From contig JAYEKV010000160.1 in the NCBI GenBank assembly GCA_034716855.1, forward strand, positions 1,926 through 65,925: a stretch of DNA of 64,000 nucleotides, written 5' to 3'. Position 1 is the stretch's first letter, and each line of letters begins with the position of its first letter. The notes below the pieces were generated by a model. It made no database searches. It was given only the letters and a program-made list of their open reading frames with translations, and had not been told where the DNA came from. Origin of the DNA: Campylobacterota bacterium. GTDB taxonomy: Bacteria > Campylobacterota > Campylobacteria > Campylobacterales > Arcobacteraceae. The translations under genes and the position numbers were made by a program. Shown piece after piece: positions 37,632-55,180 of the stretch.

Positions 37632-39620
37632 TTATTTAATATTAACAATAGGTAAACTAATAGTAAATATTGCTCCATCTTTACCATTTACAACATCTAT
37701 ATCACCGTCCATATGATTTCTAATAATATCAAAGCTCATATGAAGCCCAAGTCCTGTACCATCATCACCTTTTGTTGTAAAATATTGATCAAATATTTTA
37801 TTTATGATACTCTCTTGAATACCACCGGCATTATCCTCTATGGTTATATGTACCATATCGTTTTTTACATAACTATCTAAAATAATCATCCCATTTTTTA
37901 TATTATTGGCTAAAAGTGCATCTTTTGCATTAGTTATTATATTTATAAATACTTGAAGCACTTCATCTGCAATTACATTGATAGTTATACCTTTTCTACA
38001 GTTTTTATTTCTTATATTAATGTTATTGTCAAGCAAACTTGGTTTTATGATCTCCATAGTGTATTCTATAATACTATTTAAACTATGTTTTTTTAATACT
38101 TTATCACCTTTTATAAATTCTCTAAATGTAGTGATCGTGTCAGCAAGATATTTTACATTGGTAAGAATACTATTTGTTGTTTCTTCAAAATAATCATCTG
38201 TTAATATATCAAGGTCCTTTTGTACCTGAATAGATGTCATAGCAACACTGATTCCATTTAAAGGTTGTCTCCACTGATGTGCAATATTTCCAAGCATATC
38301 ACCCATTTGAGCCATTTTTCTTTGTTCTGTGAGCATAGTTTCTTGTCTTTTTAATATCTCCTGCTCTCTTTTTATACTTTTTGTCAAGTCATCGTTTAAA
38401 GTACTCAATTCATTTGAAGTTACATTTATCAGATGAGATAAAGCTTTAGATGACAAAGTATGTAAATCAAGATGCGATGACTCTTCAACTATATCTTTCA
38501 CAGATATATTATCTGTTTCACTTAATGCAAGAACTGTCATAGTTTGATTCATTAATTCTACAGATGATTTATTACAATTTGTAAAGAATTCACCATAGGT
38601 AAAAAAGCCCGCCGTATCAGCTATTTTACTAAAAGGTTCAATCTCATTAGAAGCTAAATGATTCATAAATCTTCTTCTTGCCATGCAAGAATATATAAAA
38701 ATAGACTCAACAGGTATATCTTTTAACTTATTTGGTATATCTATTGAACTGTTTAATATTAGTTCATTATTACCGTAACCAAATCTTACCTTATCTCCAT
38801 TATGGATATCTCCTGCAAATCTTAAAGCACCTTCACTACCGACACCTGTAACAGCCCTTGCAATGTTAATACCGTCTCTTTGAATAATTAAAGGAAATTC
38901 TATACCAATAACAGGGAGCTTTGCAGCTACATCATCACCAAGGTAATACTTGTAAGTATCATAAGCAGACATTTTATCAATTGTATATACAATATTATCT
39001 TTTGACGATGTAATGTTAAGTTCTTTCCCTATTGGCTCCCAATTAAAATTATAATCAGTAAAAACATTTAGTTGTCCGTTTAGACTAACAGCAACTGCAC
39101 CTTTTGTTATAATCTCATCTTTTGTAAAAACAAATGTTTCCACAAAAGATGAATTATCTCCTGAAAGACCACCTGATATAACTACATCTTTATTTTCTTG
39201 TTTCAGTCCCAATAAAAATTGTTCACCGTCTATATTTAATCCATCTGCAAAAGATATTACAACTTTCGTATCATTTTGAATTATTTTTTCTGACAATTTG
39301 ATCCCAAGATCCCTAGAACTCAAGTTTTTATCATTTATATAATTACATTTGCATTTTACATTTTGGAATTTAGTTATACTGATTACTGTTTTTGTGATTG
39401 AAACTTTATCTTGAAGAATTTCACCGTCTGTAGTAGAACCGATTATTACGGCATTTGGGATCAAAGAGTTTATATCTTTTAACATTGCAGATATAAACTC
39501 TTTATTTATTACACCTGTAAATATTTGTATAAATAATTCATCATTGGTATCAAACCCCTCTTCTTTAAAGAAGTCCTCTAATAAATCTATGGAATTATAA
39601 TATGTATTTACAGTTTTCAT
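37632..39620 (-). CDS. FIST-domain sensor histidine kinase
   Basis: 662 aa with an N-terminal FIST_N/FIST_C-like region, a coiled coil, the H-box NIAHQWRQPLN and HATPase motifs (DNAGGI, GTGLGL). Confidence 0.85.
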   Translation of the reverse strand: MKTVNTYYNSIDLLEDFFKEEGFDTNDELFIQIFTGVINKEFISAMLKDINSLIPNAVIIGSTTDGEILQDKVSITKTVISITKFQNVKCKCNYINDKNLSSRDLGIKLSEKIIQNDTKVVISFADGLNIDGEQFLLGLKQENKDVVISGGLSGDNSSFVETFVFTKDEIITKGAVAVSLNGQLNVFTDYNFNWEPIGKELNITSSKDNIVYTIDKMSAYDTYKYYLGDDVAAKLPVIGIEFPLIIQRDGINIARAVTGVGSEGALRFAGDIHNGDKVRFGYGNNELILNSSIDIPNKLKDIPVESIFIYSCMARRRFMNHLASNEIEPFSKIADTAGFFTYGEFFTNCNKSSVELMNQTMTVLALSETDNISVKDIVEESSHLDLHTLSSKALSHLINVTSNELSTLNDDLTKSIKREQEILKRQETMLTEQRKMAQMGDMLGNIAHQWRQPLNGISVAMTSIQVQKDLDILTDDYFEETTNSILTNVKYLADTITTFREFIKGDKVLKKHSLNSIIEYTMEIIKPSLLDNNINIRNKNCRKGITINVIADEVLQVFINIITNAKDALLANNIKNGMIILDSYVKNDMVHITIEDNAGGIQESIINKIFDQYFTTKGDDGTGLGLHMSFDIIRNHMDGDIDVVNGKDGAIFTISLPIVNIK

Positions 39621-44410: not shown

Positions 44411-44442
44411 AAAAGATCTTTTACTTCCCTAAAAGATCTTTT
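44411..44442. terminator. Hairpin formed by two copies of the self-complementary 12-mer AAAAGATCTTTT (likely bidirectional terminator)
   Basis: Copies at 44411-44422 and 44431-44442 are separated by 8 nt and sit between convergent genes. The second copy overlaps the last codons of the minus-strand CDS. Confidence 0.55.
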
Positions 44443-45428
44443 AACTGAACAAAACTATTCAATATAGATGCATTGATATAGTAAACATCCACAGCATCTT
44501 GCAACACAAACACATGTTCTTTCCAATTTACAAGATCATCCATAATAGCAACTATAAACTTTGATGCCATCTCTTTTCTTTCAACTTCGTTAAAATCTGT
44601 TTCTTTCAACAATTCCACAAGCCCATAAAGAACCTTGCTTAGTTCTTCAAACTCCGTAAATGTATATAAAAATCTATTGTATTTTTCAAGAAGATATACA
44701 ATATCATCCAATTTGTCTTCAATCTTACTTTCAAAAAGTAGAAAAGCGATAAGTGCATCTAACTCCTCTTCAAGGTCTATAAGGTCTTCAGTATCAAGTT
44801 CGTTTTCACTATAGCCTTCTAAAAACTCCATAGCAGTAACTTTTTTATGAGAATCATTAAAAGCATCCATTAACTCTTTACTGTGTTCTATACCATTTTT
44901 ATCTTCTTCTTCATCAAAATCCATAAAGTCATCTGAATCATCATCAAAATCCATAAACTCTTCTGAATCATCATCAAAGTCCATAAACTCGTCATCTTGC
45001 TCTTCATTTGAATCTGGCAGTTCTTTTTGCTCTTCTTTTTTATCGTTGAAACCTTCTAAAAAAGTTTCTAATGAGTACTCTATCTCTTTGTTGTCATAAG
45101 GTTGATATATATATTTGTAAACACCAAGTTTTAATGCTTTAAATCTATACTCTTTGTCATTAAGATTTGTAACACCGATAATTTGAGGCAATTCTATATT
45201 CATAATCCTCAATTGTCCTAGCATCTTAAGTGCATCTAACTTACAAGAAGCAATATTTACATATGCAAGATCAATTTTATTATCACTCAATATTTTAACT
45301 GCATCAGTACAGTTTTCAGCTTCAAAATAATTACAATCAATACCAACTTTTTTTAAATACTCCGTGGAATCTTGACGAATTATTTTATTATGCAAAGGAT
45401 TACTATCTACTAATAAAATATTTAACAT
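44421..45428 (-). CDS. Acidic pseudo-receiver protein with triplicated FMDFD motif (possibly ChePep-related)
   Basis: 335 aa. The N-terminal REC-like fold lacks the phospho-acceptor Asp (YVNIAS) and the conserved Lys (YQPY). An acidic repeat linker and a helical C-terminal domain follow. Last gene of the chemosensory operon. Confidence 0.7.
   Translation of the reverse strand: MLNILLVDSNPLHNKIIRQDSTEYLKKVGIDCNYFEAENCTDAVKILSDNKIDLAYVNIASCKLDALKMLGQLRIMNIELPQIIGVTNLNDKEYRFKALKLGVYKYIYQPYDNKEIEYSLETFLEGFNDKKEEQKELPDSNEEQDDEFMDFDDDSEEFMDFDDDSDDFMDFDEEEDKNGIEHSKELMDAFNDSHKKVTAMEFLEGYSENELDTEDLIDLEEELDALIAFLLFESKIEDKLDDIVYLLEKYNRFLYTFTEFEELSKVLYGLVELLKETDFNEVERKEMASKFIVAIMDDLVNWKEHVFVLQDAVDVYYINASILNSFVQLKDLLGK
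44911..45000 (-). repeat. 3 x 30-bp in-frame tandem repeat encoding (D/E)(D/E)FMDFD(D/E)(D/E)S
   Basis: Units at 44911-44940, 44941-44970 and 44971-45000 are near-identical on direct reading. Confidence 0.9.
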
Positions 45429-45431
45429 ATA

Positions 45432-45656
45432 TCAGACAGCCAACTTTAGGTTTTCAAAAAATTTTTCATTAAATTCATCCTCTACAGTTATCTGTTTTTC
45501 AGTAGATAAACAAAATAGTATCTGCATAATTGAAGGGTGTATATCATTTGAAGTTACAACTATTTCATCACAATCTTTCGAAAGCTTCAACAACTCTTCA
45601 TAATTTTCATATTCTAATTTATCCTCTAAAATAAGTACATTTTCTTCTAGCTTCAT
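45432..45656 (-). CDS. Small STAS-like protein (tentative)
   Basis: 74 aa. The hydrophobic/acidic pattern (VLILEDKLEY...DEIVVTSNDIHPSIMQILFCL) resembles short STAS/SpoIIAA-like domains. Embedded in the che operon. Confidence 0.4.
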   Translation of the reverse strand: MKLEENVLILEDKLEYENYEELLKLSKDCDEIVVTSNDIHPSIMQILFCLSTEKQITVEDEFNEKFFENLKLAV

Positions 45657-45670
45657 TATCTATCCTTCTA

Positions 45671-46057
45671 TTATCTTATTCTAAGAACTCTTTTTATGGC
45701 CGTAATAACTTTATTACTTGTAAAGGGCTTAGTTATCCAACCGGTAAGTCCTACTGCTTTACCTTTGGCTTTCATTTCAGGTGAATTTTCAGTAGTCAAT
45801 GCCAATATAGGTTTTATTTTTGTAGATGGAACTGACTTTAAAAACTTTGCAAGATCAAGACCATTCATCTCAGGCATATTTATATCCGTTATACACATAT
45901 CATAAACCATACCATTTTTAACATCCTCTACAAGTTCCAAAGGATTTGTGTAAGATATTCTTTCTATTTCTCCTGCTTTTTCAAGATCCTCCATAGCCAT
46001 CTCTAAAGAAAGATGTACTGTCTGAGAATCATCTACAACGACAACTTTTTTTGCCAT
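45671..46057 (-). CDS. cheY: CheY-like single-domain response regulator
   Basis: 128 aa with canonical DD, the phospho-acceptor in ITDINMP, T in ALTTE and K in TKPF. Confidence 0.85.
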   Translation of the reverse strand: MAKKVVVVDDSQTVHLSLEMAMEDLEKAGEIERISYTNPLELVEDVKNGMVYDMCITDINMPEMNGLDLAKFLKSVPSTKIKPILALTTENSPEMKAKGKAVGLTGWITKPFTSNKVITAIKRVLRIR

Positions 46058-46059
46058 AA

Positions 46060-46815
46060 TTAGTCTCCTTGAATTTTATTTAATATATAAGTACTTAAGA
46101 TATCATAATCTATAGCACCTCTAGCTTTTGGTTCACTTTTACATAAAGGAATACCATCAACAAATGCTTTTGCAAGCTTTATATCTCTTCTTATTGAGGG
46201 TAAAATTTTATCCTTCCCTATACTCAATTCTAACTTGTCCAATATTTCTGTATGTTCTATCATACTTTTATTGTACATTGTAGGTACTACACCTAAAAGT
46301 TCTATATCAGATTTTACACTAATAGAGTTTTTATAAAAAATTCTTAAAAACTGTAAAACACCCACTAAGCTTAAATACTCACACTGCATTGGTACAAGTG
46401 CATAGTCACTTACTTTTAGAGCATTTTTCAAAAGTATATCTGATGTTGGAGGTGTATCTATAATACAAAAATCATAATCTTTTTTCTGTTTTATTTTTCT
46501 AAAAAGCTTTTTAAGTTTAGCTGATTCACTTGCAAGTTCAGATATATCAAAATTCACATGTGCAGGTATAAAATCCAAAGTAGGTACTGCCGTATTTTGA
46601 ACAGCATTTTTATAAAACTTACCCATTTTCAGCATATCATGAATTCCAAGTACAAAATGGTCATTCACACCAAGACCAGTTTGAAGATGTCCTTGTGTAT
46701 CCAAATCAATTAAAAGGACCTCATAACCTTTTGAAGCAATATTAAAAGCAAGGTTTACAGATGTTGTGGTCTTACCAACCCCGCCTTTTCTATTAGTAAC
46801 TAAAATTGTTTTCAA
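46060..46815 (-). CDS. ParA/MinD-family ATPase embedded in the chemosensory operon
   Basis: 251 aa with a deviant Walker A (NRKGGVGKTT). Lies 2 nt from cheY and 12 nt from cheR. No parB nearby. Confidence 0.85.
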   Translation of the reverse strand: MKTILVTNRKGGVGKTTTSVNLAFNIASKGYEVLLIDLDTQGHLQTGLGVNDHFVLGIHDMLKMGKFYKNAVQNTAVPTLDFIPAHVNFDISELASESAKLKKLFRKIKQKKDYDFCIIDTPPTSDILLKNALKVSDYALVPMQCEYLSLVGVLQFLRIFYKNSISVKSDIELLGVVPTMYNKSMIEHTEILDKLELSIGKDKILPSIRRDIKLAKAFVDGIPLCKSEPKARGAIDYDILSTYILNKIQGD

Positions 46816-46827
46816 AAATAACCCCCT

Positions 46828-47646
46828 CTAATACTTTTGGTAAACCAACGATTTACCCATTCTTTGAGTTTTAAAAAGTGAACTTATACGACTCATTTTG
46901 TCTGCATGACCTAAGAAAATATATCCATCATTATTTAAAAGATCATAAAAAGTGACACCAACTTCTCTTCTGCTTTCATCGTCAAAGTATATCAACATAT
47001 TTCTTGAAAAAATTATGTCAAACTTCCCAAGTAGTCTTACTTGTGATTTATCCATAATATTAACTATTTTAAAATTAACTGCACCTTTTATCATTGGTGC
47101 TATCTCAAAACCTTTTTCAGTTATGTTAAAATATTCTTTTAAAAGATGATTTGGTATAAATTGAACACTTCGTTTATTATAAATACCTTTTTTTGCTTTT
47201 TTTATTACCGTACTATCTATATCAATTGCAACAATCTCTATATCTCTTTTATTGATAATTTCAGCTTCGTCCAAAATATTTAAAACCATTGTATAAGGTT
47301 CTTCCCCTGTAGATGAAGGTGCACAAAGTATTCTAATTATATCATCTTTAGCTTTATTTCTATCAATTTGAGGAAGAACTATATCAATTAATGATTCAAA
47401 ATGGTGCTTTTCTCGGTAGAAATAAGTTTCATTCACTGTTATCAAATTAATAACTTCTTGAATTATTGCTTGACTCTTTCCAAACCTAATAGTATGAAAA
47501 AAAGATCTAAAATTTTCATATCCGTGTTCATCCAAATAAGGTGTTAGTTTTTTAATAAAAGAATCCTGTTTTTTATCATCTATAAAAATACCGGTCTTTC
47601 TATAAATATAATCTCGTATCTTTATAAACTCTTTATAATTAATCAT
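46828..47646 (-). CDS. cheR: Chemotaxis protein methyltransferase CheR
   Basis: 272 aa with an N-terminal helical domain and a SAM-binding domain (ILCAPSSTGEEPY, FSRNMLIYF). Confidence 0.9.
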   Translation of the reverse strand: MINYKEFIKIRDYIYRKTGIFIDDKKQDSFIKKLTPYLDEHGYENFRSFFHTIRFGKSQAIIQEVINLITVNETYFYREKHHFESLIDIVLPQIDRNKAKDDIIRILCAPSSTGEEPYTMVLNILDEAEIINKRDIEIVAIDIDSTVIKKAKKGIYNKRSVQFIPNHLLKEYFNITEKGFEIAPMIKGAVNFKIVNIMDKSQVRLLGKFDIIFSRNMLIYFDDESRREVGVTFYDLLNNDGYIFLGHADKMSRISSLFKTQRMGKSLVYQKY

Positions 47647-47649
47647 AAA

Positions 47650-48294
47650 TTAACCTTTGATCTTCTCACATGCCAAGTCTATACCAAAAGCTACATAAGG
47701 CTCTTGTGAAAACTTTTCTTTTAATAATAAAAGTTCTTCTATATCCTCTAACTCACCAATCTCACCTAAGTAATCAACAGCTGTCATAATGACATTAATA
47801 TTCTTTTCATCTTCTATAAGCTCTAAAAGCATATCTCTGGAATCTTCATAATTAACATCACCTAATATATTTACAGCAAATATTCGAATATCTTTATCTT
47901 CATTGTGAAGAAGTTTTGATATAAAAGGTTTTGCAGTTTCACCGTACTCTTGTAGAAAAGTTATCGCTTTATTTCTAAGATATGCATTAGATGATTGTAA
48001 CATTTTGAAAATATTATCATAATCCTCCGCCCTTTTAGGTTTGGTTGTAAAGCTTGAAAAAGCATGATCTATAAGAGGATGATCTATAAGAGGATGATCT
48101 AAATTATCCTGATTTGAATACTTACTTAACAGTATATCTAGAACATAACTTATCTCCTGATGTCCCAAAATATAGTTCAGAGCATCAAATCTTACCTCTT
48201 CGATCTCATCATTATTTTCAAATGCATCTTTAGCATCTAAAAAAGTTCTGAATGTTCTTGTATACTCTTCTACATTGCTCTTAACAAAAGCCAT
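47650..48294 (-). CDS. HEAT-repeat protein
   Basis: 214 aa with three or more HEAT-like repeats (NAYLRNKAITFLQEYG, DKDIRIFAVNILGDV, NVIMTAVDYLGEIG). Located between cheB and cheR. Confidence 0.7.
   Translation of the reverse strand: MAFVKSNVEEYTRTFRTFLDAKDAFENNDEIEEVRFDALNYILGHQEISYVLDILLSKYSNQDNLDHPLIDHPLIDHAFSSFTTKPKRAEDYDNIFKMLQSSNAYLRNKAITFLQEYGETAKPFISKLLHNEDKDIRIFAVNILGDVNYEDSRDMLLELIEDEKNINVIMTAVDYLGEIGELEDIEELLLLKEKFSQEPYVAFGIDLACEKIKG
48064..48101 (-). repeat. 15-bp tandem repeat (about 2.5 copies) encoding DHPLI-DHPLI-DH
   Basis: ATGATCTATAAGAGG is repeated at 48064-48078 and 48079-48093, with a partial third copy. In frame within the HEAT gene. Confidence 0.85.
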
Positions 48295-49358
48295 TATTTA
48301 CCTCCAAACTTCAATATCTCTTTTAATATTTCAGGAAAAGGGAGAACTTTAACTGTTCCACCTTTTTCATATGCTGCCCTTGGCATACCGTAAATTGTCG
48401 CAGTTTCTTTTGATTCTGCAATTGTGTATGCACCTTTATTTTTTAGCTCAACCATACCTAATGCACCGTCATCACCAATACCTGTAAGTTCAATAGCTAA
48501 TATATTCTCACATTTCATTGTTTTTGAAGCAGAAAAAAACATCTCACCTACAGAAGGAGTAAAAAACAATTTTTTAGTATTCGAGCCTAATTTTACACTT
48601 ACAAGTCCTGAAGCCTTTTTTGAAAAGACCATATGGTATCCACCTTTACCTATTATAAGTTTTCCTGCAGTTAAAGGTTCATTGTTCTTGGCTTCTACAA
48701 CATTCAAATTAGAAATATCATTAAGTCTTGTTGCAAACTTCTCAGTAAAAAGCTCCGGCATATGCTGTACCACACAAATAGGATATGGATAATCAGCAGG
48801 CATTGTCGTAGCAATCTTTTCGATTAAACCAGGACCCCCTGTTGAAGATCCTACCAAAACAAACTTTTCAGCTTTTTGCGATGATGAAACAATTTTTTTA
48901 ACTTTCTTTTTTCCAAGTCCCGTTTTCGTTACATTACCCGCTTTTCTAATAACAAGTCTATTTTTTGATATATTAGTTGCTGCTGTTACTTTTCTAATAA
49001 TCTCATCACCTGATTCTTTTACTTTTAAAGTAATAGTCCCAGGCTTCCCTACAAAATCAACCGCACCGTAATCAAGAGCTTCAAATGTAATATCAGCATC
49101 CCCTTGTGTTAGAGAACTTACCATAACAATAGGTGTGGGTTTTTTCTTCATTATCGTTTTTACTGCACTTAAACCATCCATAACCGGCATATTTATATCC
49201 ATAGTTATTGCATCAAAATCTGATTCAAAAGTTTTTTCAACAGCTTCTTGACCGTTTTTTGCATAATCTACCTCAAAAGAGGCAGAAGTAAGCAGCTTGC
49301 CAAGTTCTCTTCTTATAAGTGCAGAATCATCAACGATTAGTATTTTTTTAGCCATCAA
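48294..49358 (-). CDS. cheB: Chemotaxis response regulator protein-glutamate methylesterase CheB
   Basis: 354 aa with a REC domain (DDS, TMDINMP) and a methylesterase domain (GSSTGGP, VVQHMP, GIGDDGA). Confidence 0.9.
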   Translation of the reverse strand: MMAKKILIVDDSALIRRELGKLLTSASFEVDYAKNGQEAVEKTFESDFDAITMDINMPVMDGLSAVKTIMKKKPTPIVMVSSLTQGDADITFEALDYGAVDFVGKPGTITLKVKESGDEIIRKVTAATNISKNRLVIRKAGNVTKTGLGKKKVKKIVSSSQKAEKFVLVGSSTGGPGLIEKIATTMPADYPYPICVVQHMPELFTEKFATRLNDISNLNVVEAKNNEPLTAGKLIIGKGGYHMVFSKKASGLVSVKLGSNTKKLFFTPSVGEMFFSASKTMKCENILAIELTGIGDDGALGMVELKNKGAYTIAESKETATIYGMPRAAYEKGGTVKVLPFPEILKEILKFGGK

Positions 49359-49364
49359 CTCTCT

Positions 49365-50135
49365 TTATATGTGAATATCATTTATAATTGTTGCTATTTT
49401 ACCGTCTTCAAGTTCTATTGCACAATCAAATTGAACGATCTCACCCTCTTCTACTTGACTTAACTTTTGTTTTTGTTCATCTTTTATAGTTATAATATCA
49501 ATAACATCATCCACAAGAATATTAACTGTATCACCTTTACTTGTATTAAATGCAACAATTCTCTGAATTGAGTTTGTCCAAAGGTCAATATCTTTGTTTA
49601 ACATCTCCAGATTATTAATAACTATATCATAATGGTTATGAATCTCCGTTCTTATTATACCTACGGCTTTTTCCTTATCTGTAAGTGCAGTATCTATTAC
49701 AACTCTACCTTTTTGGTGAAGATGTTTATGATGAGGATTGATCTCCCTTTTTATCTTATCCATAAATGTATCATCACATTTTAAACATGTAAGAATATCA
49801 TCAAGCCATTTCCCTAAAGGACAAGCATGTGGGTCAAGTGTTTTTGTGAAATCTTTATCTTGATTTACAGACTCTTCTAACTCTTTTATCCAATCTGCAT
49901 GTCCTTGTTTAATACTTGCGATAAACTCTTGAAGCTCTTCGCTCATCTCTTTATAGTGCATCATCTTTCTTAAACTTACAACAGTACCTATATGACCTCT
50001 TATGTTCATAACACCAAGGATATATTCTGCTACTTCAGGTATCTCCGTTATATCCTTAGGTCTTAGTATCTCTATAATACTCTCAACATCTATTGCAAAA
50101 TATTTGTCTTTAACTACTAATAATAAATACTCCAT
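49365..50135 (-). CDS. CheW-like coupling protein with CZB (chemoreceptor zinc-binding) domain inserted in the CheW fold
   Basis: 256 aa. The N-terminal half of CheW covers residues 1-58 (YFAIDVESIIEI...GVMNIRGHIGTVVSL). The CZB motif HADW-x22-CPLGKW-x25-HKHLH covers residues 79-140. The C-terminal half of CheW covers about residues 190-256. Confidence 0.8.
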   Translation of the reverse strand: MEYLLLVVKDKYFAIDVESIIEILRPKDITEIPEVAEYILGVMNIRGHIGTVVSLRKMMHYKEMSEELQEFIASIKQGHADWIKELEESVNQDKDFTKTLDPHACPLGKWLDDILTCLKCDDTFMDKIKREINPHHKHLHQKGRVVIDTALTDKEKAVGIIRTEIHNHYDIVINNLEMLNKDIDLWTNSIQRIVAFNTSKGDTVNILVDDVIDIITIKDEQKQKLSQVEEGEIVQFDCAIELEDGKIATIINDIHI

Positions 50136-50138
50136 CTC

Positions 50139-52037
50139 TTATCCTTGTTGTAATTCATCTGCTGAAACTGCTAGATCTTCAATATAATCACCCATCTCTG
50201 CTATTGTGTCATTTATAAGTGATGCCGCATGTTTTGATTCTTCAGTATTTTGAAGTGACTGCTGTGCTGCACCTAGTATTTGAGTACTTGCTGTTAATGC
50301 TTCTTCAATAGAACACTTATTTTTTTCGTTTGCTATTTTTAAACCGTTAAAAGCTTCTATTATTTTTTCTACATTTGTTATAGCTCTTGAAGCTTCATCT
50401 TTTAACATATTTACAGTAATAAGCTCTTGTTCTTGATTGTTCATAGTTGTTTCCCAGATAGTATCAATATTTTCTATCTCTTCATCAAGGCTGTCCATAA
50501 CATCCTGAACCTTATCCATATTATTCCCGGCATCCTGTGCAAGACTTCTGATATCTCCACTTACAACGGCAAAACCTTTACCGCTTTCACCTGCACGAGC
50601 TGCTTCTACACTACCGCTTACTGCCAGCATTGTAGTTTGAGCATTTGTATTTACAATTTTTACAAGTGTCTTATTGATCTTATTTGCTTCTTTGTCAACA
50701 AGTCTCATCTGCTTACTTGTAACTTTACCCTCAACAACACTCTCATCTGTAAATTTATGAGTTTCATGGAGTTCTGATTCAACATCTTTTAAATATTTCG
50801 CTGTTTTATCAAGGAAATCAATAACCTCTAAAGTATTATCTAAAAGTTCATTTTGTATATCCAATGAATCTTCTGCAAATTTTTGATTTACACTAGATTC
50901 TTCAGAAGTTATCTGTGCTGCTCCTTCTATTTGTTCTAAAGCAATTACCGACTGCTGCATAGATTTTTGTATCTCTTCAACTACACTTATAAGCTCTTCA
51001 GCCGCCGTAGAAATCTCTTCAGCATCTTTTGAGGCATCTGTTGAGTTCTTTAGCTCTTCTGCAAGTTCAGACAATCCACTTGCCGCTTCTTCTGATTCAT
51101 GAAGTGCATTAACCTGCATCTCTATAGAGTTTGTGATCTGTGCAACGGCACTTGCACTCTCCTCTGCCGCACTTGCAATAGATTCACTACCTTTATTGAA
51201 CTCCTGTGCTTTATCTGCAAGATCTTCAAACTTTTTTACACTTGAAATTATTATATCAATGGCAGTTTGGATACTTTCCATAGAACCTTGAATGTTTTTG
51301 GTAATAGATTCGCCAAGGTCTGAAGAGTTGATAATAAGTGAAGCAACTGTTTGAATATTGTTCTCAACTTTTTCAATAGATTCTTGAATATTGCTAACAA
51401 CTTCTCTTATCACATCTGCATATGTTGTAGATACAGCAGCAAGCTCTCTTGTCTCAGCTGCAACAACTGCAAAACCTTTACCCTGCTCTTTTGCTTTTGC
51501 TGCTTCAATTGCCGCATTTAATGCAAGTAGATTTGTCTGGTCTGCAATCTTTGCGATCAAACCAACTGCCTGACCGATATTGTCACTGGCTTTTTTCATA
51601 TCTGCACTTTTTTCTTGTACATTTGTAACAGTTTGTGAAGCTAGCTGCATTCTATTTGCAGTTTCTATAACTTTCTCGCCACCCTCTTCAACAACAACTT
51701 TTGTTGATGAAGCCAAAGCAACAGATTCATTTAACTCTCTCATTGTTTTTTGAATAGATTGATTTAGCTGAGTAACAACTTTTAAACTTTGCTCAGATGC
51801 ACCTGCGTTTTGTTCACTGGCAGCTGCTATTTGTTCCATAGCACTTTTTAACTCTTCAATAGCACTAACGCTCTCTTGAGCTTTTCTTAAAATTTCTGTT
51901 GATACACCGTCTATAGCTTCAGATATCTGCTGTTGCTTTGCCAATGTTCTGTTTCTTTTTTTATTTACCACATCACTTCTTTTTGATTTTACTCCACCAA
52001 TATTAGATGATGCGGTATTATGTTCTACGAAAGCCAT
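50139..52037 (-). CDS. Soluble methyl-accepting chemotaxis protein with two tandem signalling domains
   Basis: 632 aa with no TM segment. Two MCP hairpin-tip motifs are present (...LLALNAAIEAAKAKEQGKGFAVVAAETRELA and ...MLAVSGSVEAARAGESGKGFAVVSGDIRSLA). Confidence 0.85.
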   Translation of the reverse strand: MAFVEHNTASSNIGGVKSKRSDVVNKKRNRTLAKQQQISEAIDGVSTEILRKAQESVSAIEELKSAMEQIAAASEQNAGASEQSLKVVTQLNQSIQKTMRELNESVALASSTKVVVEEGGEKVIETANRMQLASQTVTNVQEKSADMKKASDNIGQAVGLIAKIADQTNLLALNAAIEAAKAKEQGKGFAVVAAETRELAAVSTTYADVIREVVSNIQESIEKVENNIQTVASLIINSSDLGESITKNIQGSMESIQTAIDIIISSVKKFEDLADKAQEFNKGSESIASAAEESASAVAQITNSIEMQVNALHESEEAASGLSELAEELKNSTDASKDAEEISTAAEELISVVEEIQKSMQQSVIALEQIEGAAQITSEESSVNQKFAEDSLDIQNELLDNTLEVIDFLDKTAKYLKDVESELHETHKFTDESVVEGKVTSKQMRLVDKEANKINKTLVKIVNTNAQTTMLAVSGSVEAARAGESGKGFAVVSGDIRSLAQDAGNNMDKVQDVMDSLDEEIENIDTIWETTMNNQEQELITVNMLKDEASRAITNVEKIIEAFNGLKIANEKNKCSIEEALTASTQILGAAQQSLQNTEESKHAASLINDTIAEMGDYIEDLAVSADELQQG

Positions 52038-54793
52038 TACTTTTTCTCCTTTTGATTTATAAGTTTAACTGGATTAATTACAAATAAAACTTCACCGTTT
52101 CCTAAAAGTGAAGTACCTGAAATGAACGGATGATCTTTAAAGTTTGATGATAGAGGTTTTTGAATTATATCTAACTGATTTACAAACTCATCAACCACAT
52201 AACCAAATTTATTTTCTGATGTTTCAATAATCAATAACGATATATTCTCTTTTTGATCAACATCTTTTGAAAGAAGATTATAATTAAATATTAACGGTAT
52301 AAGGTTACCTCTTAGTTTCAACATTGGTTTTTTATTTACATACTCTATCTCTTCTTTTGGTATTTGAACAGTTTCACTTATTGTATCCATTGCAAGAGCA
52401 TAATTAACATCTCCTAGTTTCACATGGAATACATTTGTAAGCGCAACGCTCATTGGAAGCTCCAGTACCAATGTAGTACCCACACCAACTTCACTTTTTA
52501 AAGATATCTTACCTCCAACATCATCGATACTTTGTCTAACTACATCCATACCTACACCACGACCTGAAAGCTCACTTATTTTTTCCATAGTCGATACACC
52601 TGGATGAAATACTAGCATAAGCTTCTCTTCCCGACTCATCTCATCAAGCTGATCTGGATCTACCATCTTTTTATCAAGAGCCTTATGAACAACCTTATCT
52701 ACATCTATACCTCTACCGTCATCCTCTATAGTGATATATACTTTATCCCCTAATGATTGTGCAGAAATAGAGATATTACCTTCAGGGTCTTTACCGTTCT
52801 CTTCTCTCTCTTCTGGCGTTTCTATACCATGATCTAATGAGTTTCTAATTATATGAATAAGCGGATCTGCTAATTTTTCAATAATTGTTTTGTCAAGTTT
52901 TGTTTCTCCACCCTCTTCATGATATTTAATCTTTTTATTTAAAGATTTAGAGATATCTCTTACAAGTTTAGGGTATCTATCAAAAATAAAAGATACAGAA
53001 AGTAGTCTCATCTGCATAACTTTTTCTTGAAGTAAAGTTGTAACTCTATTGATCTCATCATATCTGGTCTGAAGATCTCTCTTACTTGACTCTACATTAG
53101 AGATATCCAATCCATCAGCTATATATGGTAAAGCATTTTTAATAACAAGCATCTCTCCAACTATATCCATCATAGAGTCTATATCAGATAAGTCAATTTT
53201 AACAGTTTTTGCCACTTGTTTTGCAACTTTTTGATTCTTTTCTTTTTTTGACTCTTTTTTAGTCTTTTTAGTAACTTCATTTTTATTCTGTGAAATCTCT
53301 GATTCCGACTTTCGTTCAATTACTTTCTCTGGTTCAGGTGCATCGTTCTCAACTTCTATTTTTTCTTCTACAATATCTTTACAACCTATAGAATCAAACA
53401 TATTCTCAATTACTCTTAATAGATCATCCTTATCATTACAATTTTCTATACCAAAATGATCACCTAAAGATTTTTCTAATTTTAATAAAACAGATTTAAT
53501 TTGAGTATGTACATTTTCATTGTCAATGTTATTTAAAATATAATTTTGTTCGGATAAAATATCTGCTATTGTTTTTTTATCATCTTCATCTAGTGAAACA
53601 ACTTCTGATATAACTTCTTCAGATATCTCTTCTTTTTGTATATTATCTATTTCAATTGTATCTTCTTCTGTTTCTTGTTCAGGTTCTTCTAAAGATTGAA
53701 TCTCTTCTTCTATCTCATCTTCTATTATATTCTCATCATTAATTAATTCAAGAATATAATTTAATGCTTTTGGGATAAGTTTTTCATCAAGATTACAATC
53801 CTCTATCAAATATCTTAATCTTCCAAATAAAAATCCTTGTAAAGAGTTTGGATTTAAGATATCCACTACAGCTTTTAAATTTGCTACAATATTTTTATAA
53901 TCAAACTCAGCAGGAAGATTTTTAATATCATCTAAAAAATCTATAATAGAATCATTTGTTTGTATCTCAAGTTCACAATTTAAAAGTGATTTAACTGATA
54001 ATGGATACACACTTACATCTTCTAAAAAGTTATAAAAAGCATCTTCGAGTAATTCTTGATTTGAGTATACTATAGCTGTGATTCTTGAAGACCATTGAAG
54101 AGGATCCTCTTTTATCTGCTCTAATGTAGCTGAAACTTCAGTATGTATAGAGATTATATTTTCATTTTCAAGTAAATAAAGGGCATAAAAAGGATCATTA
54201 CCCATTTGAAGTGTATCTTCATCAAGATCAATATCTATAAAATAATAATTCATGTTTGTAAAAGATTCTTGAGTTATCTCCTGTGGCTCGTAAGGTATAG
54301 TATTTAACTCAATAGAAGAAAAGTCATTTTTAAACATATTTGCAAAAAAAGGAACTTCATCATCAATAATATTTAACTCAGTATCAATACCCTCTATAAC
54401 TTCCTCTTTTAAATCAAGTATCTCTTCTCTTAATTTTTTAAATTCTAATATTTTATCTTCACCTACAGAAGCTACCTCTCCGCTCTCTTCTGTGGCATCT
54501 ACCAGCTCAGTAACTTCATCAAACATATCATATAATGCATCTAATAAAGTATCACTATATGTTATTTTATCGTTACGGTAAGCATCAAGAAGATCTTCAG
54601 CTATATGGGTAACCTCTTTAACTGCATCAAAGCCTGAAAGACCCGAACTACCTTTTAGTGTATGAGCAGCACGAAAGAGTGCATTTACAGTATCTTTATC
54701 AGACCCTTCCAAGCTTGAAAGATTTTTATCTAGATAAAGAAGATTTTCTCTTGCTTCTACTAAAAACTGTTCTAATATTGGATTCATCTTCAC
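52037..54793 (-). CDS. cheA: Chemotaxis histidine kinase CheA with long non-canonical P1-P3 linker
   Basis: 918 aa with P1 Hpt (AAHTLKGSSGLSG), a roughly 400-aa acidic region, P3/P4 (HIIRNSLDHGIE, GRGVGMDVV) and a P5 CheW-like domain. Confidence 0.9.
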   Translation of the reverse strand: MKMNPILEQFLVEARENLLYLDKNLSSLEGSDKDTVNALFRAAHTLKGSSGLSGFDAVKEVTHIAEDLLDAYRNDKITYSDTLLDALYDMFDEVTELVDATEESGEVASVGEDKILEFKKLREEILDLKEEVIEGIDTELNIIDDEVPFFANMFKNDFSSIELNTIPYEPQEITQESFTNMNYYFIDIDLDEDTLQMGNDPFYALYLLENENIISIHTEVSATLEQIKEDPLQWSSRITAIVYSNQELLEDAFYNFLEDVSVYPLSVKSLLNCELEIQTNDSIIDFLDDIKNLPAEFDYKNIVANLKAVVDILNPNSLQGFLFGRLRYLIEDCNLDEKLIPKALNYILELINDENIIEDEIEEEIQSLEEPEQETEEDTIEIDNIQKEEISEEVISEVVSLDEDDKKTIADILSEQNYILNNIDNENVHTQIKSVLLKLEKSLGDHFGIENCNDKDDLLRVIENMFDSIGCKDIVEEKIEVENDAPEPEKVIERKSESEISQNKNEVTKKTKKESKKEKNQKVAKQVAKTVKIDLSDIDSMMDIVGEMLVIKNALPYIADGLDISNVESSKRDLQTRYDEINRVTTLLQEKVMQMRLLSVSFIFDRYPKLVRDISKSLNKKIKYHEEGGETKLDKTIIEKLADPLIHIIRNSLDHGIETPEEREENGKDPEGNISISAQSLGDKVYITIEDDGRGIDVDKVVHKALDKKMVDPDQLDEMSREEKLMLVFHPGVSTMEKISELSGRGVGMDVVRQSIDDVGGKISLKSEVGVGTTLVLELPMSVALTNVFHVKLGDVNYALAMDTISETVQIPKEEIEYVNKKPMLKLRGNLIPLIFNYNLLSKDVDQKENISLLIIETSENKFGYVVDEFVNQLDIIQKPLSSNFKDHPFISGTSLLGNGEVLFVINPVKLINQKEKK

Positions 54794-54811: not shown

Positions 54812-55180
54812 TTAACTACACTTTATAGTTAATAATTTAGCAACCCTTAATAGGTCATCACTGCTTACTGGCTTAACCTCGTAAAAATTTGCACCTGCTT
54901 CATATGCTATAGTTCTATCACTTTTATCTGATTCAGTAGAGATCATAACTATAGAAGCATCATAGCCTGAATTTTCTCTATATCTTCGAACAAATGAATA
55001 TCCGTCTAAAATAGGCATATTTATATCAACTAAAAATAGATCATAACTGTTTTCACTTACTTTTTCCAGTGCTTCCATACCATTTTCTGCTTCATCTATT
55101 TCATAGCCTGCACCTTGAAGTATCTGCTTATGATAAAGTCTTACCGTTACTGAATCATCTACAATCAAAATTTTCATCAT
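54812..55180 (-). CDS. cheY: CheY-like single-domain response regulator (first gene of the operon)
   Basis: 122 aa with canonical DD, LVDINMP, ST and KP residues. A strong RBS (AGGAGGGAAG) lies immediately upstream. Confidence 0.85.
   Translation of the reverse strand: MMKILIVDDSVTVRLYHKQILQGAGYEIDEAENGMEALEKVSENSYDLFLVDINMPILDGYSFVRRYRENSGYDASIVMISTESDKSDRTIAYEAGANFYEVKPVSSDDLLRVAKLLTIKCS

What the first reader, a model, noticed from the sequence alone, without database searches (positions are those of the whole stretch)
49566..49958. CZB zinc/oxidant-sensing module inserted inside a CheW domain
**Split CheW fold.** The 256-aa protein starts as a normal CheW (YFAIDVESIIEILRPKDITEIPEVAEYILGVMNIRGHIGTVVSLRK). 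It ends as one as well (RIVAFNTSKGDTVNILVDDVIDIITIK...IATIINDIHI). The two halves are separated by about 130 residues.

**CZB motif in the insert.** The insert matches the published CZB core motif Hxx[WFYL]-x21-28-Cx[LFMVI]Gx[WFLVI]-x18-27-HxxxH. The observed sequence is HADW, then 22 residues, then CPLGKW, then 25 residues, then HKHLH (nt 49716-49901).

**Why it is unusual.** CZB domains are known on chemoreceptors such as Helicobacter TlpD and on diguanylate cyclases such as DgcZ, where they bind zinc and react with hypochlorous acid through the Cys. A CZB placed as an insertion within the CheW fold, in an operon whose receptor has no sensor domain, suggests that signal input goes through the coupling protein.
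Basis: partly seen in the sequence, partly recalled or inferred. Interest (0 to 1): 0.72.

Follow-up and report, generated by a model that had tools for sequence, protein, structure and literature searches.

The report
Zinc-sensor domain nested inside CheW
This gene encodes a chemotaxis coupling protein (CheW) with a zinc-binding CZB sensor domain inserted in one of its loops; the combination is already catalogued as "CheW-CZB" but has never been tested, and here it is the only coupling protein in a gene cluster whose receptor has no sensor of its own.

Summary
ORF 49365-50135 (minus strand, 256 aa) is a CheW domain split after its fifth beta-strand by a 131-aa CZB four-helix bundle (aa 60-190, nt 49566-49958). 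Pfam scores both domains above their curated cut-offs. The published CZB motif sits exactly at nt 49716-49901.

An AlphaFold model built on 104 relatives (pLDDT 94) matches solved CheW structures across both halves, and its insert matches the DgcZ CZB crystal structure. The four zinc ligands (H79, C105, H136, H140) are kept in 219 of 227 single-domain relatives.

It is not a new kind of protein. Perkins et al. 2021 list "CheW-CZB" as 1.4% of CZB proteins. Every relative I aligned, from at least four phyla, has the same nested topology.

The local context is the more interesting part. The operon follows the F9-class gene order, with a DosM-type receptor that has two signalling domains and no sensor, and a ParA-like ATPase. 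The usual triple-CheW protein is replaced by this single CheW-CZB.

The most likely function is a zinc/thiol-redox input delivered to CheA through the adaptor. That is inferred, not shown.

A conserved extra CxxC next to the zinc cysteine is unexplained.

The parts
49365..50135 (-). cheW-CZB gene, 256 aa plus stop. It is the only free-standing CheW-like ORF in the window.
   Evidence: ORF list. Pfam CheW and CZB hits. A family-HMM scan of all window ORFs finds only this one.
49959..50135 (-). CheW N-terminal half, aa 1-59. Predicted strands are 2-8, 11-16, 20-24, 39-45 and 48-54. It contains E22 and R46, the equivalents of E. coli E38 and R62.
   Evidence: Pfam profile positions 1-70. PDB alignment. 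AlphaFold model. Pair statistics.
49566..49958 (-). Nested CZB domain, aa 60-190. Predicted helices are 64-91, 106-114, 122-150 and 154-190.
   Evidence: Pfam CZB at 38.1 bits. Model pLDDT above 90 across most of the insert (87-89 at aa 111-130). Foldseek match to 3t9o_B: probability 1.00, TM 0.71, rmsd 3.2.
49716..49901 (-). CZB core motif with the zinc ligands: H79 (49899-49901), C105 (49821-49823), H136 (49728-49730) and H140 (49716-49718).
   Evidence: Regex match. Codons read. All four ligands are kept in 219 of 227 single-domain relatives.
49776..49787 (-). Extra CxxC (C117-L-K-C120), six residues after the CxLGxW motif. It is specific to one subfamily.
   Evidence: Present in 43 of 299 session proteins, including relatives at 25-43% identity. 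Absent from the Sulfurimonas-type clade.
49368..49565 (-). CheW C-terminal half, aa 191-256. Predicted strands are 192-197, 203-208, 210-216, 234-241 and 247-254. D209 is nearly invariant.
   Evidence: Second Pfam CheW stretch. Non-significant PDB alignment of query 199-221 to T. maritima CheW 78-100 (1.0 bit). Model. D209 in 263 of 268 modules.
50139..52037 (-). DosM-type soluble receptor, 632 aa. It has two signalling hairpins (GKGFAVV at aa 186 and 486), no transmembrane segment and no sensor domain.
   Evidence: Pfam MCPsignal in two stretches. Internal repeat with BLASTP E 3e-13, and maximum 19-residue hydropathy of 0.98.
52037..54793 (-). CheA, 918 aa. Domains are Hpt, dimerisation, ATPase and a CheW-like P5. 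About 430 residues lie between Hpt and the dimerisation domain.
   Evidence: Pfam.
54812..55180 (-). CheY-like response regulator, 122 aa; first gene of the cluster.
   Evidence: ORF list. Conserved upstream of cheA in related loci.
48294..49358 (-). CheB methylesterase, 354 aa.
   Evidence: NCBIfam NF001965, E 2.5e-100.
47650..48294 (-). HEAT-repeat protein, 214 aa, between cheB and cheR. This is the '.' position in the published F9 gene order.
   Evidence: Pfam HEAT_2. The same position is occupied in L012 and L026. Published gene orders.
46828..47646 (-). CheR methyltransferase, 272 aa.
   Evidence: NCBIfam NF007902, E 1.4e-43.
46060..46815 (-). ParA/MinD-like ATPase, 251 aa.
   Evidence: NCBIfam ParA-family hits. 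Conserved next to cheW-CZB in the Sulfurimonas loci.
44421..46057 (-). Distal genes of the operon: CheY-like protein (128 aa), a 74-aa protein, and a 335-aa response regulator with acidic FMDFD repeats.
   Evidence: ORF list. Pfam Response_reg. Co-linear in L001, L002 and L005.

Best explanation
**What it is (shown).** The gene encodes a CheW-CZB coupling protein. It is a complete CheW fold with a chemoreceptor zinc-binding (CZB) helical bundle inserted between the fifth and sixth beta-strands. The insert starts directly after the beta4-beta5 hairpin. That hairpin corresponds to E. coli CheW I55-V68, a proposed CheA-binding site.

**Where it sits (shown).** It belongs to a tightly packed 11-gene operon: cheY, cheA, a dosM-like receptor, cheW-CZB, cheB, a HEAT-repeat gene, cheR, a parA-like gene, cheY and two more genes. 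The core order matches the F9 chemosensory class, which in Vibrio cholerae builds two-layered cytoplasmic arrays scaffolded by the sensor-less double-headed receptor DosM. Here the usual triple-CheW protein is absent from the cluster. CheW-CZB is the only adaptor encoded in it.

**How it most likely works (inferred).**
1. The protein assembles with the CheA P5 domain and the DosM tips into the array baseplates.
2. The CZB holds Zn2+ through H79, C105, H136 and H140.
3. Oxidation of C105, or a fall in available zinc, releases the metal and loosens the bundle. This is the order-to-disorder switch shown for DgcZ and TlpD.
4. Both ends of the bundle run almost without linker into CheW strands. The change would therefore be passed to the CheA- and receptor-binding surfaces and alter CheA activity or array coupling.

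**Net effect (inferred).** The adaptor would supply a cytoplasmic zinc/thiol-redox input to a system whose receptor cannot sense. Given the free-living sulfur-oxidiser hosts, the physiological stimulus is more likely general oxidants or zinc status than HOCl.
For: **Identity and topology**
- Pfam CheW scores 69.9 bits in two stretches, and CZB scores 38.1 bits; both are above cut-off.
- T. maritima CheW aligns significantly to query 3-71; query 199-221 aligns only as a non-significant second segment.
- The AlphaFold model on a 104-sequence alignment has pLDDT 94 and pTM 0.86. It shows 5 + 5 strands flanking four helices, with no more than 5 loop residues at either junction.
- Foldseek matches CheW structures at E 5e-8 to 1e-6 and TM 0.69-0.76, spanning both halves. 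It matches DgcZ CZB 3t9o_B at probability 1.00 and TM 0.71.

**Selection on the zinc site**
- H79, C105, H136 and H140 are invariant in 17 orthologues that reach down to 28% identity.
- They are at least 90% conserved in 104 sequences.
- The full H-C-H-H set is intact in 219 of 227 single-domain relatives.

**CheW function retained**
- The equivalent of the E. coli E38-R62 salt bridge (E22/R46) is E/R in 132 and charge-swapped R/E in 56 of 268 modules. R56 and D209 are nearly invariant.
- The role of that bridge and of I55-V68 is described in PMC3828127.

**Context**
- In 14 of the 18 Campylobacterota loci the gene lies immediately after cheA or dosM; in three short or truncated loci (L011, L013, L016) only cheA could be seen, and in L014 neither.
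- The receptor is DosM-type and has no sensor.
- Published F9 gene orders read DosM-W3-B-.-R. [quoted passage not shown]
- No other free-standing CheW-like ORF occurs in the window.

**CZB mechanism**
- Cys oxidation leads to zinc release and then to disorder that reaches both CZB termini (PMC8262984).
- Sensing through CheW-fused domains has been proposed before (PMC10653840).
Against: - No experiment exists on any CheW-CZB protein. Zinc binding, redox reactivity and any effect on CheA are all inferred.
- I could not inspect model coordinates. The geometry of the zinc site and the direction in which the bundle projects relative to the receptor and CheA surfaces are unknown.
- The first AlphaFold run, on 17 sequences, mis-modelled the N-terminal CheW half. 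The good model therefore depends on alignment depth.
- In triple-CheW relatives that carry the same insert, only 9 of 31 keep all four ligands. A few single-domain members have also lost them. The insert can therefore persist without zinc, which points to a structural role.
- Many relatives are orphan genes far from any che operon. The link to DosM clusters is not general.
- F9 membership was not confirmed with class-specific models, and other CheW genes may exist elsewhere in this genome.
Confidence: 0.55

Rival explanations
1. The insert is mainly a structural or oligomerisation module, not a sensor. CZB domains are homodimers. A CZB dimer would tie two CheW domains together without a covalent link. 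That would do for this cluster what covalent concatenation does in the triple-CheW protein of F9 arrays. Zinc would be a permanent structural cofactor.
For: - F9 systems normally use concatenated CheW3. Here a single CheW with the insert takes that gene position.
- The same insert occurs in the second domain of 600-770-aa multi-CheW proteins, where 22 of 31 have lost at least one zinc ligand.
- Some single-domain members also lack ligands.
- CZB alpha1 residues pack against the partner in the homodimer (PMC8262984).
- DgcZ binds zinc very tightly (my recollection of Zahringer et al. 2013, not checked here).
Against: - In the single-domain class 96% keep all four ligands, including the reactive Cys, down to about 20% sequence identity. 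That argues for selection on more than fold stability.
- A His or Asp would serve equally well as a purely structural ligand.
- Dimerisation of this protein was not tested.
- The two roles are not exclusive: redox-controlled cross-linking would still be signalling.
Confidence: 0.3
2. The protein is a dedicated HOCl (bleach) sensor, like H. pylori TlpD and E. coli DgcZ.
For: - The Cys-containing motif CxLGxW is intact.
- HOCl reactivity has been shown for CZB domains from two distant clusters, including cluster III, which contains the CheW-CZB proteins (PMC8262984).
Against: - Close relatives come from environmental Campylobacterota: Arcobacteraceae and Sulfurimonas metagenome-assembled genomes, and a hydrothermal-vent metagenome.
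- Other carriers are the acetogen Acetobacterium woodii, Nitrospinota and Phycisphaeraceae. None of these is in a neutrophil-exposed niche.
- Perkins et al. regard zinc binding as the ancestral function and HOCl sensing as a later adaptation to hosts.
- Position 2 of the Cys motif differs from the Arg-rich chemoreceptor type.
Confidence: 0.1
3. The nested arrangement is an artefact: a frameshift, a mis-assembly, a chance motif, or a decaying gene.
For: None found.
Against: - The reading frame is intact, with translational-coupling spacing to both neighbouring genes.
- There are 27 orthologue clusters of full or near-full length at 72-96% identity.
- There are 91 representatives at E below 1e-30, and the same insertion point (CheW profile positions 64-71) recurs in every relative examined.
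- The motif appears in none of 200,000 shuffles.
Confidence: 0.01

Closest known systems
CheW-CZB subgroup of CZB proteins (Perkins et al. 2021, mBio, PMC8262984; listed as a known CheW architecture in Muok et al. 2023, PMC10653840)
   Same: - It has the same two Pfam domains in one soluble protein of about 260 aa.
- The 3His/1Cys site is intact.
- Position 2 of the Cys motif is variable or Ala, as reported for this subgroup. The window has Pro; distant relatives have Ala as consensus.
- Named members found here include Acetobacterium woodii, Eubacteriaceae and Oscillospiraceae. This fits the paper's statement that the subgroup is 'most abundant in Clostridia'.
   Different: - Nothing sets this protein apart from the subgroup in kind.
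- The paper's text never says that the CZB is nested inside the CheW fold; it discusses only N- and C-terminal CZBs.
- It does not mention the DosM/F9 context or the extra CxxC.
- No member of the subgroup has been studied experimentally.
F9-class chemosensory system (Vibrio cholerae cluster I: DosM plus triple-CheW 'CheW3'; Briegel et al. 2016; Mo et al. 2022, PMC9321776)
   Same: - The receptor has two signalling domains and no sensor or membrane segment.
- The core gene order is DosM-W-B-(HEAT)-R, with cheY and cheA alongside.
- CheA has a long insertion before the dimerisation domain.
- Sulfurimonas loci show the published order DosM-W3-B-.-R-Y-.-Y-A-W1, in which W1 is the CheW-CZB.
   Different: - The window's cluster has no CheW3. 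A single CheW with a nested CZB sits in that position.
- A ParA-like ATPase is part of the operon.
- The published survey reported only the F7 class in Arcobacter.
- Class-specific models and the receptor heptad class (44H) were not tested.
H. pylori TlpD and E. coli DgcZ (characterised CZB proteins)
   Same: - The CZB fold and ligand set are the same. The model matches DgcZ CZB 3T9O with TM 0.71.
- TlpD is also a cytoplasmic chemotaxis input from a member of the Campylobacterota.
   Different: - In those proteins the CZB is a terminal domain on the receptor or on the cyclase.
- Here it is inserted in the adaptor, so both CZB termini are tied to the regulated domain.
- Sequence similarity outside the motif is low.
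CheWS of Treponema denticola (CheW fused to a CheR-like sensor; Muok et al. 2023)
   Same: Same concept: a CheW that carries its own input domain and brings a signal into the array through the coupling protein.
   Different: The sensor domain is different and is fused at the end, not nested. The chemosensory class and the membrane-bound arrays also differ.

Membership tests
CheW-like domain (PF01584) | Profile match above the curated threshold | tested here: met
   69.9 bits against a cut-off of 23.5, in two stretches.
CheW-like domain (PF01584) | Fold of two intertwined five-stranded beta-barrels | tested here: met
   Prediction only. The model has ten strands. Foldseek matches 2ch4, 2qdl, 6s1k and 8c5v CheW chains with TM (target) 0.69-0.76, E 5e-8 to 1e-6, and alignments spanning both halves.
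CheW-like domain (PF01584) | Conserved coupling residues (equivalents of the E. coli E38-R62 salt bridge) | tested here: met
   The window has E22 and R46. Across 268 nested modules the pair is E/R in 132 and charge-swapped R/E in 56 (PMC3828127).
CheW-like domain (PF01584) | Binds CheA P5 and receptor tips | not testable with these tools
   Supported only by context: the gene lies next to cheA or dosM in 17 of the 18 related loci; the truncated L014 shows neither.
CZB domain (PF13682) | Profile match above the curated threshold | tested here: met
   38.1 bits against a cut-off of 29.4, E 2e-9, aa 79-146.
CZB domain (PF13682) | 3His/1Cys core motif, conserved in relatives | tested here: met
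   Regex match at aa 79-140. The H-C-H-H set is intact in 219 of 227 single-domain relatives.
CZB domain (PF13682) | Helical-bundle fold like DgcZ CZB | tested here: met
   Prediction only. 3t9o_B matches with probability 1.00, TM (target) 0.71 and rmsd 3.2 over 123 columns. The E-value is a modest 2.5e-2 because the query has two domains.
CZB domain (PF13682) | Binds Zn2+; the Cys is redox-reactive | not testable with these tools
   Needs ICP-MS and sulfenic-acid assays.
CZB domain (PF13682) | Homodimer through alpha1 | not tested
   No multimer prediction was available.
CheW-CZB subgroup (Perkins 2021) | CheW and CZB in one protein, with no MCP, GGDEF or EAL domain | tested here: met
   These are the only two Pfam families found.
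F9 chemosensory class | DosM: a receptor with two tandem signalling domains and no sensor | tested here: met
   Two hairpin tips, internal repeat at E 3e-13, and no transmembrane segment.
F9 chemosensory class | Triple-CheW adaptor (CheW3) | tested here: not met
   There is no CheW3 in the cluster or anywhere in the window. The Sulfurimonas relatives have both CheW3 and CheW-CZB.
F9 chemosensory class | Gene order DosM-W-B-.-R with cheY and cheA | tested here: met
   The window order is Y-A-DosM-W-B-HEAT-R, compared with the published orders.
F9 chemosensory class | Class-specific CheA/CheB/CheR profiles and a 44H receptor | not testable with these tools
   No class HMMs were available. Hairpin arms of about 21-22 heptads are compatible with 44H, but that is only a rough count.

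The most novel reading that the evidence does not exclude
In this Arcobacteraceae-type lineage the triple-CheW scaffold of an F9/DosM cytoplasmic array has been replaced by a single CheW with a nested CZB. The CZB also carries an extra CxxC dithiol. On this reading the whole pathway has no ligand-binding receptor. It takes its only input from the zinc/thiol-redox state of the adaptor, which may also control array assembly through CZB dimerisation. That would be a receptor-independent chemosensory system.
Probability: 0.25. Interest if true: 0.65.

Novelty: new member of a known kind. Interest (0 to 1): 0.38.

Why it matters
The function and input of F9-class cytoplasmic arrays are still unknown. 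This includes Vibrio cholerae cluster I. Their DosM receptors lack sensors, and published work says that other sensory proteins must feed them.

A cluster in which the only adaptor carries a conserved zinc/redox sensor gives a concrete, testable candidate for that input. It also gives a simple system for asking whether a coupling protein, not a receptor, can drive CheA.

The nested topology ties both ends of the CZB switch to the regulated domain. That makes it a useful natural test of the order-to-disorder model of CZB signalling.

As a catalogue entry the protein is ordinary, because the architecture is already listed.

Tried and rejected
**Steps that led nowhere or were superseded**
- The first AlphaFold run on 17 mostly close orthologues gave pLDDT 81. 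It had a disordered 27-41 segment and a spurious helix over strands 45-59. Its Foldseek search had no hit below E 0.1. I discarded it in favour of the 104-sequence model.
- I searched the Perkins 2021 supplements for CheW or Arcobacter and found nothing.
- I tried to read Draper 2011 and Briegel 2016; neither is held.
- The CheW-architecture study by Vass et al. mentions neither CZB nor insertions.
- The genome scan also returned seven Firmicutes loci (L019-L025) that match only the N-terminal CheW half. Six of them (L020-L025) have a receiver-domain (CheY-like) match directly downstream of that CheW half, the layout expected of CheV. I did not confirm this with Pfam, and I set all seven aside as irrelevant.

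**Hypotheses I rejected**
- I asked whether the CxxC subfamily is tied to DosM clusters. It is not: P0043 and P0214 are orphan genes.
- I asked whether an extra histidine (H135) forms a second site together with the CxxC. H135 is confined to the closest clade, so I rejected this as a general feature.
- I first equated R56 with E. coli R62. The alignment offset of +16 shows that R62 corresponds to R46 and that R56 corresponds to R72.
Full report
**1. The observation**

- The published CZB regex matches aa 79-140, which is nt 49716-49901. It reads HADW, 22 residues, CPLGKW, 25 residues, HKHLH.
- It matches no other ORF among the 135 window ORFs of at least 70 aa, and none of 200,000 shuffles of the protein.
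- Pfam finds CheW (PF01584) at 69.9 bits against a cut-off of 23.5. The hit is split into two stretches, and the first ends at profile position 70 of 138.
- Pfam finds CZB (PF13682) at 38.1 bits against a cut-off of 29.4, covering aa 79-146.
- Against solved structures, T. maritima CheW residues 5-73 align significantly to query 3-71. Residues 78-100 align to query 199-221 only as a non-significant second segment (1.0 bit).

About 130 residues (aa 60-190, nt 49566-49958) are therefore inserted in a single CheW loop.

**2. Fold**

A first AlphaFold run on 17 mostly close orthologues modelled the insert well but not the N-terminal CheW half. It gave no usable structure matches.

A second run used 104 diverse relatives and gave pLDDT 94 and pTM 0.86.
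- Five strands come first: 2-8, 11-16, 20-24, 39-45 and 48-54.
- Four helices follow: 64-91, 106-114, 122-150 and 154-190.
- Five more strands close the fold: 192-197, 203-208, 210-216, 234-241 and 247-254.

Foldseek matched this model to CheW crystal, NMR and cryo-EM structures at E 5e-8 to 1e-6. TM-scores normalised to the target were 0.69-0.76, and the alignments of about 252-255 columns span both halves. Foldseek also matched the DgcZ CZB domain 3T9O at probability 1.00, TM 0.71 and rmsd 3.2 Å.

In the model the flanks therefore assemble into one CheW fold, with the bundle protruding from it. The junctions are short: no more than 5 loop residues on entry and 1 on exit. I read that as rigid coupling, which is an inference.

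**3. Conservation**
- H79, C105, H136 and H140 are invariant in 17 orthologues reaching down to 28% identity.
- They are at least 90% conserved in the 104-sequence alignment.
- CheW features are kept too. The alignment offset to E. coli CheW is +16, so E. coli E38/R62 correspond to E22/R46 here.
- Across 268 nested modules this pair is E/R in 132 and charge-swapped R/E in 56. That is the pattern expected if the salt bridge coupling the receptor and kinase sites (PMC3828127) is maintained.
- The beta4-beta5 hairpin just before the insert corresponds to E. coli I55-V68, a proposed CheA-binding site.

**4. How common it is**

A profile search of 1.84 billion representative proteins gave 91 hits below E 1e-30. 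About 88 of the top 150 are proteins of 240-300 aa that match end to end.

Pfam scans of diverse members all show the first CheW stretch ending at profile positions 64-71, followed by CZB. The insertion point is therefore the same throughout.

Named carriers:
- Arcobacter sp. FWKO B
- Arcobacteraceae, Sulfurimonadaceae and Sulfurimonas metagenome-assembled genomes
- Acetobacterium woodii
- Eubacteriaceae and Oscillospiraceae
- Nitrospinota
- Phycisphaeraceae

Precomputed annotation already prints 'CheW, CZB, CheW'.

**5. Literature**
- Perkins et al. 2021 define seven CZB architecture subgroups. One is 'CheW-CZB', at 1.4% of CZB proteins and most abundant in Clostridia (PMC8262984).
- Muok et al. 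2023 list CheW-CZB among known CheW architectures. They propose that sensing through CheW-fused domains may be widespread (PMC10653840).
- Neither text says the CZB is nested. Perkins et al. discuss only N- and C-terminal CZBs.
- I found no experimental work on any CheW-CZB protein.

The architecture is therefore known.

**6. Local context**

The gene sits in an 11-gene minus-strand operon with gaps of -1 to 18 nt. The order is:
1. cheY
2. cheA
3. a 632-aa receptor
4. cheW-CZB
5. cheB
6. a HEAT-repeat gene
7. cheR
8. a parA-like gene
9. cheY
10. a 74-aa ORF
11. a response regulator

The receptor has two signalling hairpins (GKGFAVV at aa 186 and 486), an internal repeat (E 3e-13), no transmembrane segment and no sensor domain. 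That is the DosM type that defines the F9 class.

Published F9 gene orders read DosM-W3-B-.-R-Y-A. [quoted passage not shown] In V. cholerae these proteins build two-layered cytoplasmic arrays (PMC7534058).

The window keeps the DosM-W-B-HEAT-R core but has no triple-CheW. CheW-CZB is the only free-standing CheW-like ORF in the 64 kb.

Related loci:
- Five close loci and one at 43% identity show the same layout.
- Sulfurimonas loci read DosM-CheW3-B-HEAT-R-Y-.-Y-A-CheW-CZB-ParA. This matches the published order '[DosMW3B.RY.YAW1]' for S. gotlandica.
- The 'W1' of that table is therefore very probably a CheW-CZB. I infer this from sister genomes; I did not check S. gotlandica itself.

Elsewhere the gene is often an orphan.

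**7. Mechanism**

The CZB mechanism established for DgcZ and TlpD runs as follows. Oxidation of the zinc-bound Cys lowers zinc affinity. Zinc release then causes an order-to-disorder transition that reaches the N- and C-terminal helices (PMC8262984).

In the nested topology both of those helices lead straight into CheW strands next to the proposed CheA-binding hairpin. The best-supported model is therefore a zinc/thiol-redox switch in the adaptor that changes CheA control or array coupling. This would give a sensor-less DosM array its input.

- Shown: the identity of the protein, its topology, the conservation and the genomic context.
- Inferred: metal binding, reactivity and the effect on CheA.

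The main rival is a structural or dimerising role. In triple-CheW proteins that carry the same insert in their second domain, only 9 of 31 keep all four ligands. The bundle can therefore persist without zinc.

HOCl specificity is unlikely given the habitats of the carriers. Perkins et al. themselves regard zinc binding as the ancestral function.

**8. Verdict**

This is a new, uncharacterised member of the known CheW-CZB class. Three features add interest: it replaces CheW3 in an F9-like cluster, its topology is nested, and a subfamily-specific CxxC lies beside the zinc cysteine.

Interest is moderate, at about 0.38.

Noticed in passing
window 49776-49787 (-), aa 117-120: An extra CxxC (C-L-K-C) lies six residues after the CZB CxLGxW motif. 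Relative to Sulfurimonas-type relatives it is a 4-residue insertion. It is conserved as C-[LMS]-[KST]-C in 43 of 299 proteins seen, including relatives at 25-43% identity. It could be a second redox or metal site. I found no description of it in the papers read.
   Followed up: partly
window 50139-52037 (-): The 632-aa receptor is DosM-type. It has two signalling hairpins and an internal duplication, with no sensor and no membrane segment. Its first ~35 residues are lysine/arginine-rich, and a ParA-like ATPase is encoded in the same operon. This recalls ParA-dependent positioning of cytoplasmic chemoreceptor clusters (from memory, not tested).
   Followed up: partly
proteins P0046, P0051, P0054 and about 28 others; locus L026 8001-10055: Multi-CheW (CheW3-like) proteins of 600-770 aa carry the same helical insert at the same site in their second CheW domain. 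Only 9 of 31 keep the H-C-H-H ligands, so many look like degenerate, zinc-free CZB inserts. P0046 lies in an MCP-W3(CZB)-B-.-HEAT-R-Y-A-V cluster.
   Followed up: partly
L012 7977-8741 and other Sulfurimonas loci L007-L018: The single-domain 'W1' gene listed after cheA in the published F9 gene order for Sulfurimonas gotlandica and Sulfuricurvum appears to be a CheW-CZB. That paper does not note the sensor domain.
   Followed up: partly
aa 22 and 46 of the protein (window about 49998-50072, -): The equivalents of the E. coli CheW E38-R62 salt bridge are E/R in the window's clade and charge-swapped R/E in the Sulfurimonas clade (56 of 268 modules). This is a neat compensatory change.
   Followed up: yes
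window 52037-54793 (-): CheA has about 430 residues between the Hpt domain (aa 6-94) and the dimerisation domain (aa 529-595). This stretch includes long acidic segments. A 2026 preprint reports an unexplained insertion at this place in F9 CheA.
   Followed up: no
window 44421-45428 (-): The last gene of the operon is a response regulator with three tandem acidic 'FMDFD(D/E)' repeats and a C-terminal region that matches no family. A 74-aa ORF with no family match precedes it. Both are co-linear in close relatives.
   Followed up: no
window 37632-39620 (-) and L029 1-229: A FIST-domain histidine kinase lies about 5 kb from the che cluster in the window. One also lies beside the homologous cluster in a relative at 43% identity, which may be a conserved neighbourhood.
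   Followed up: no
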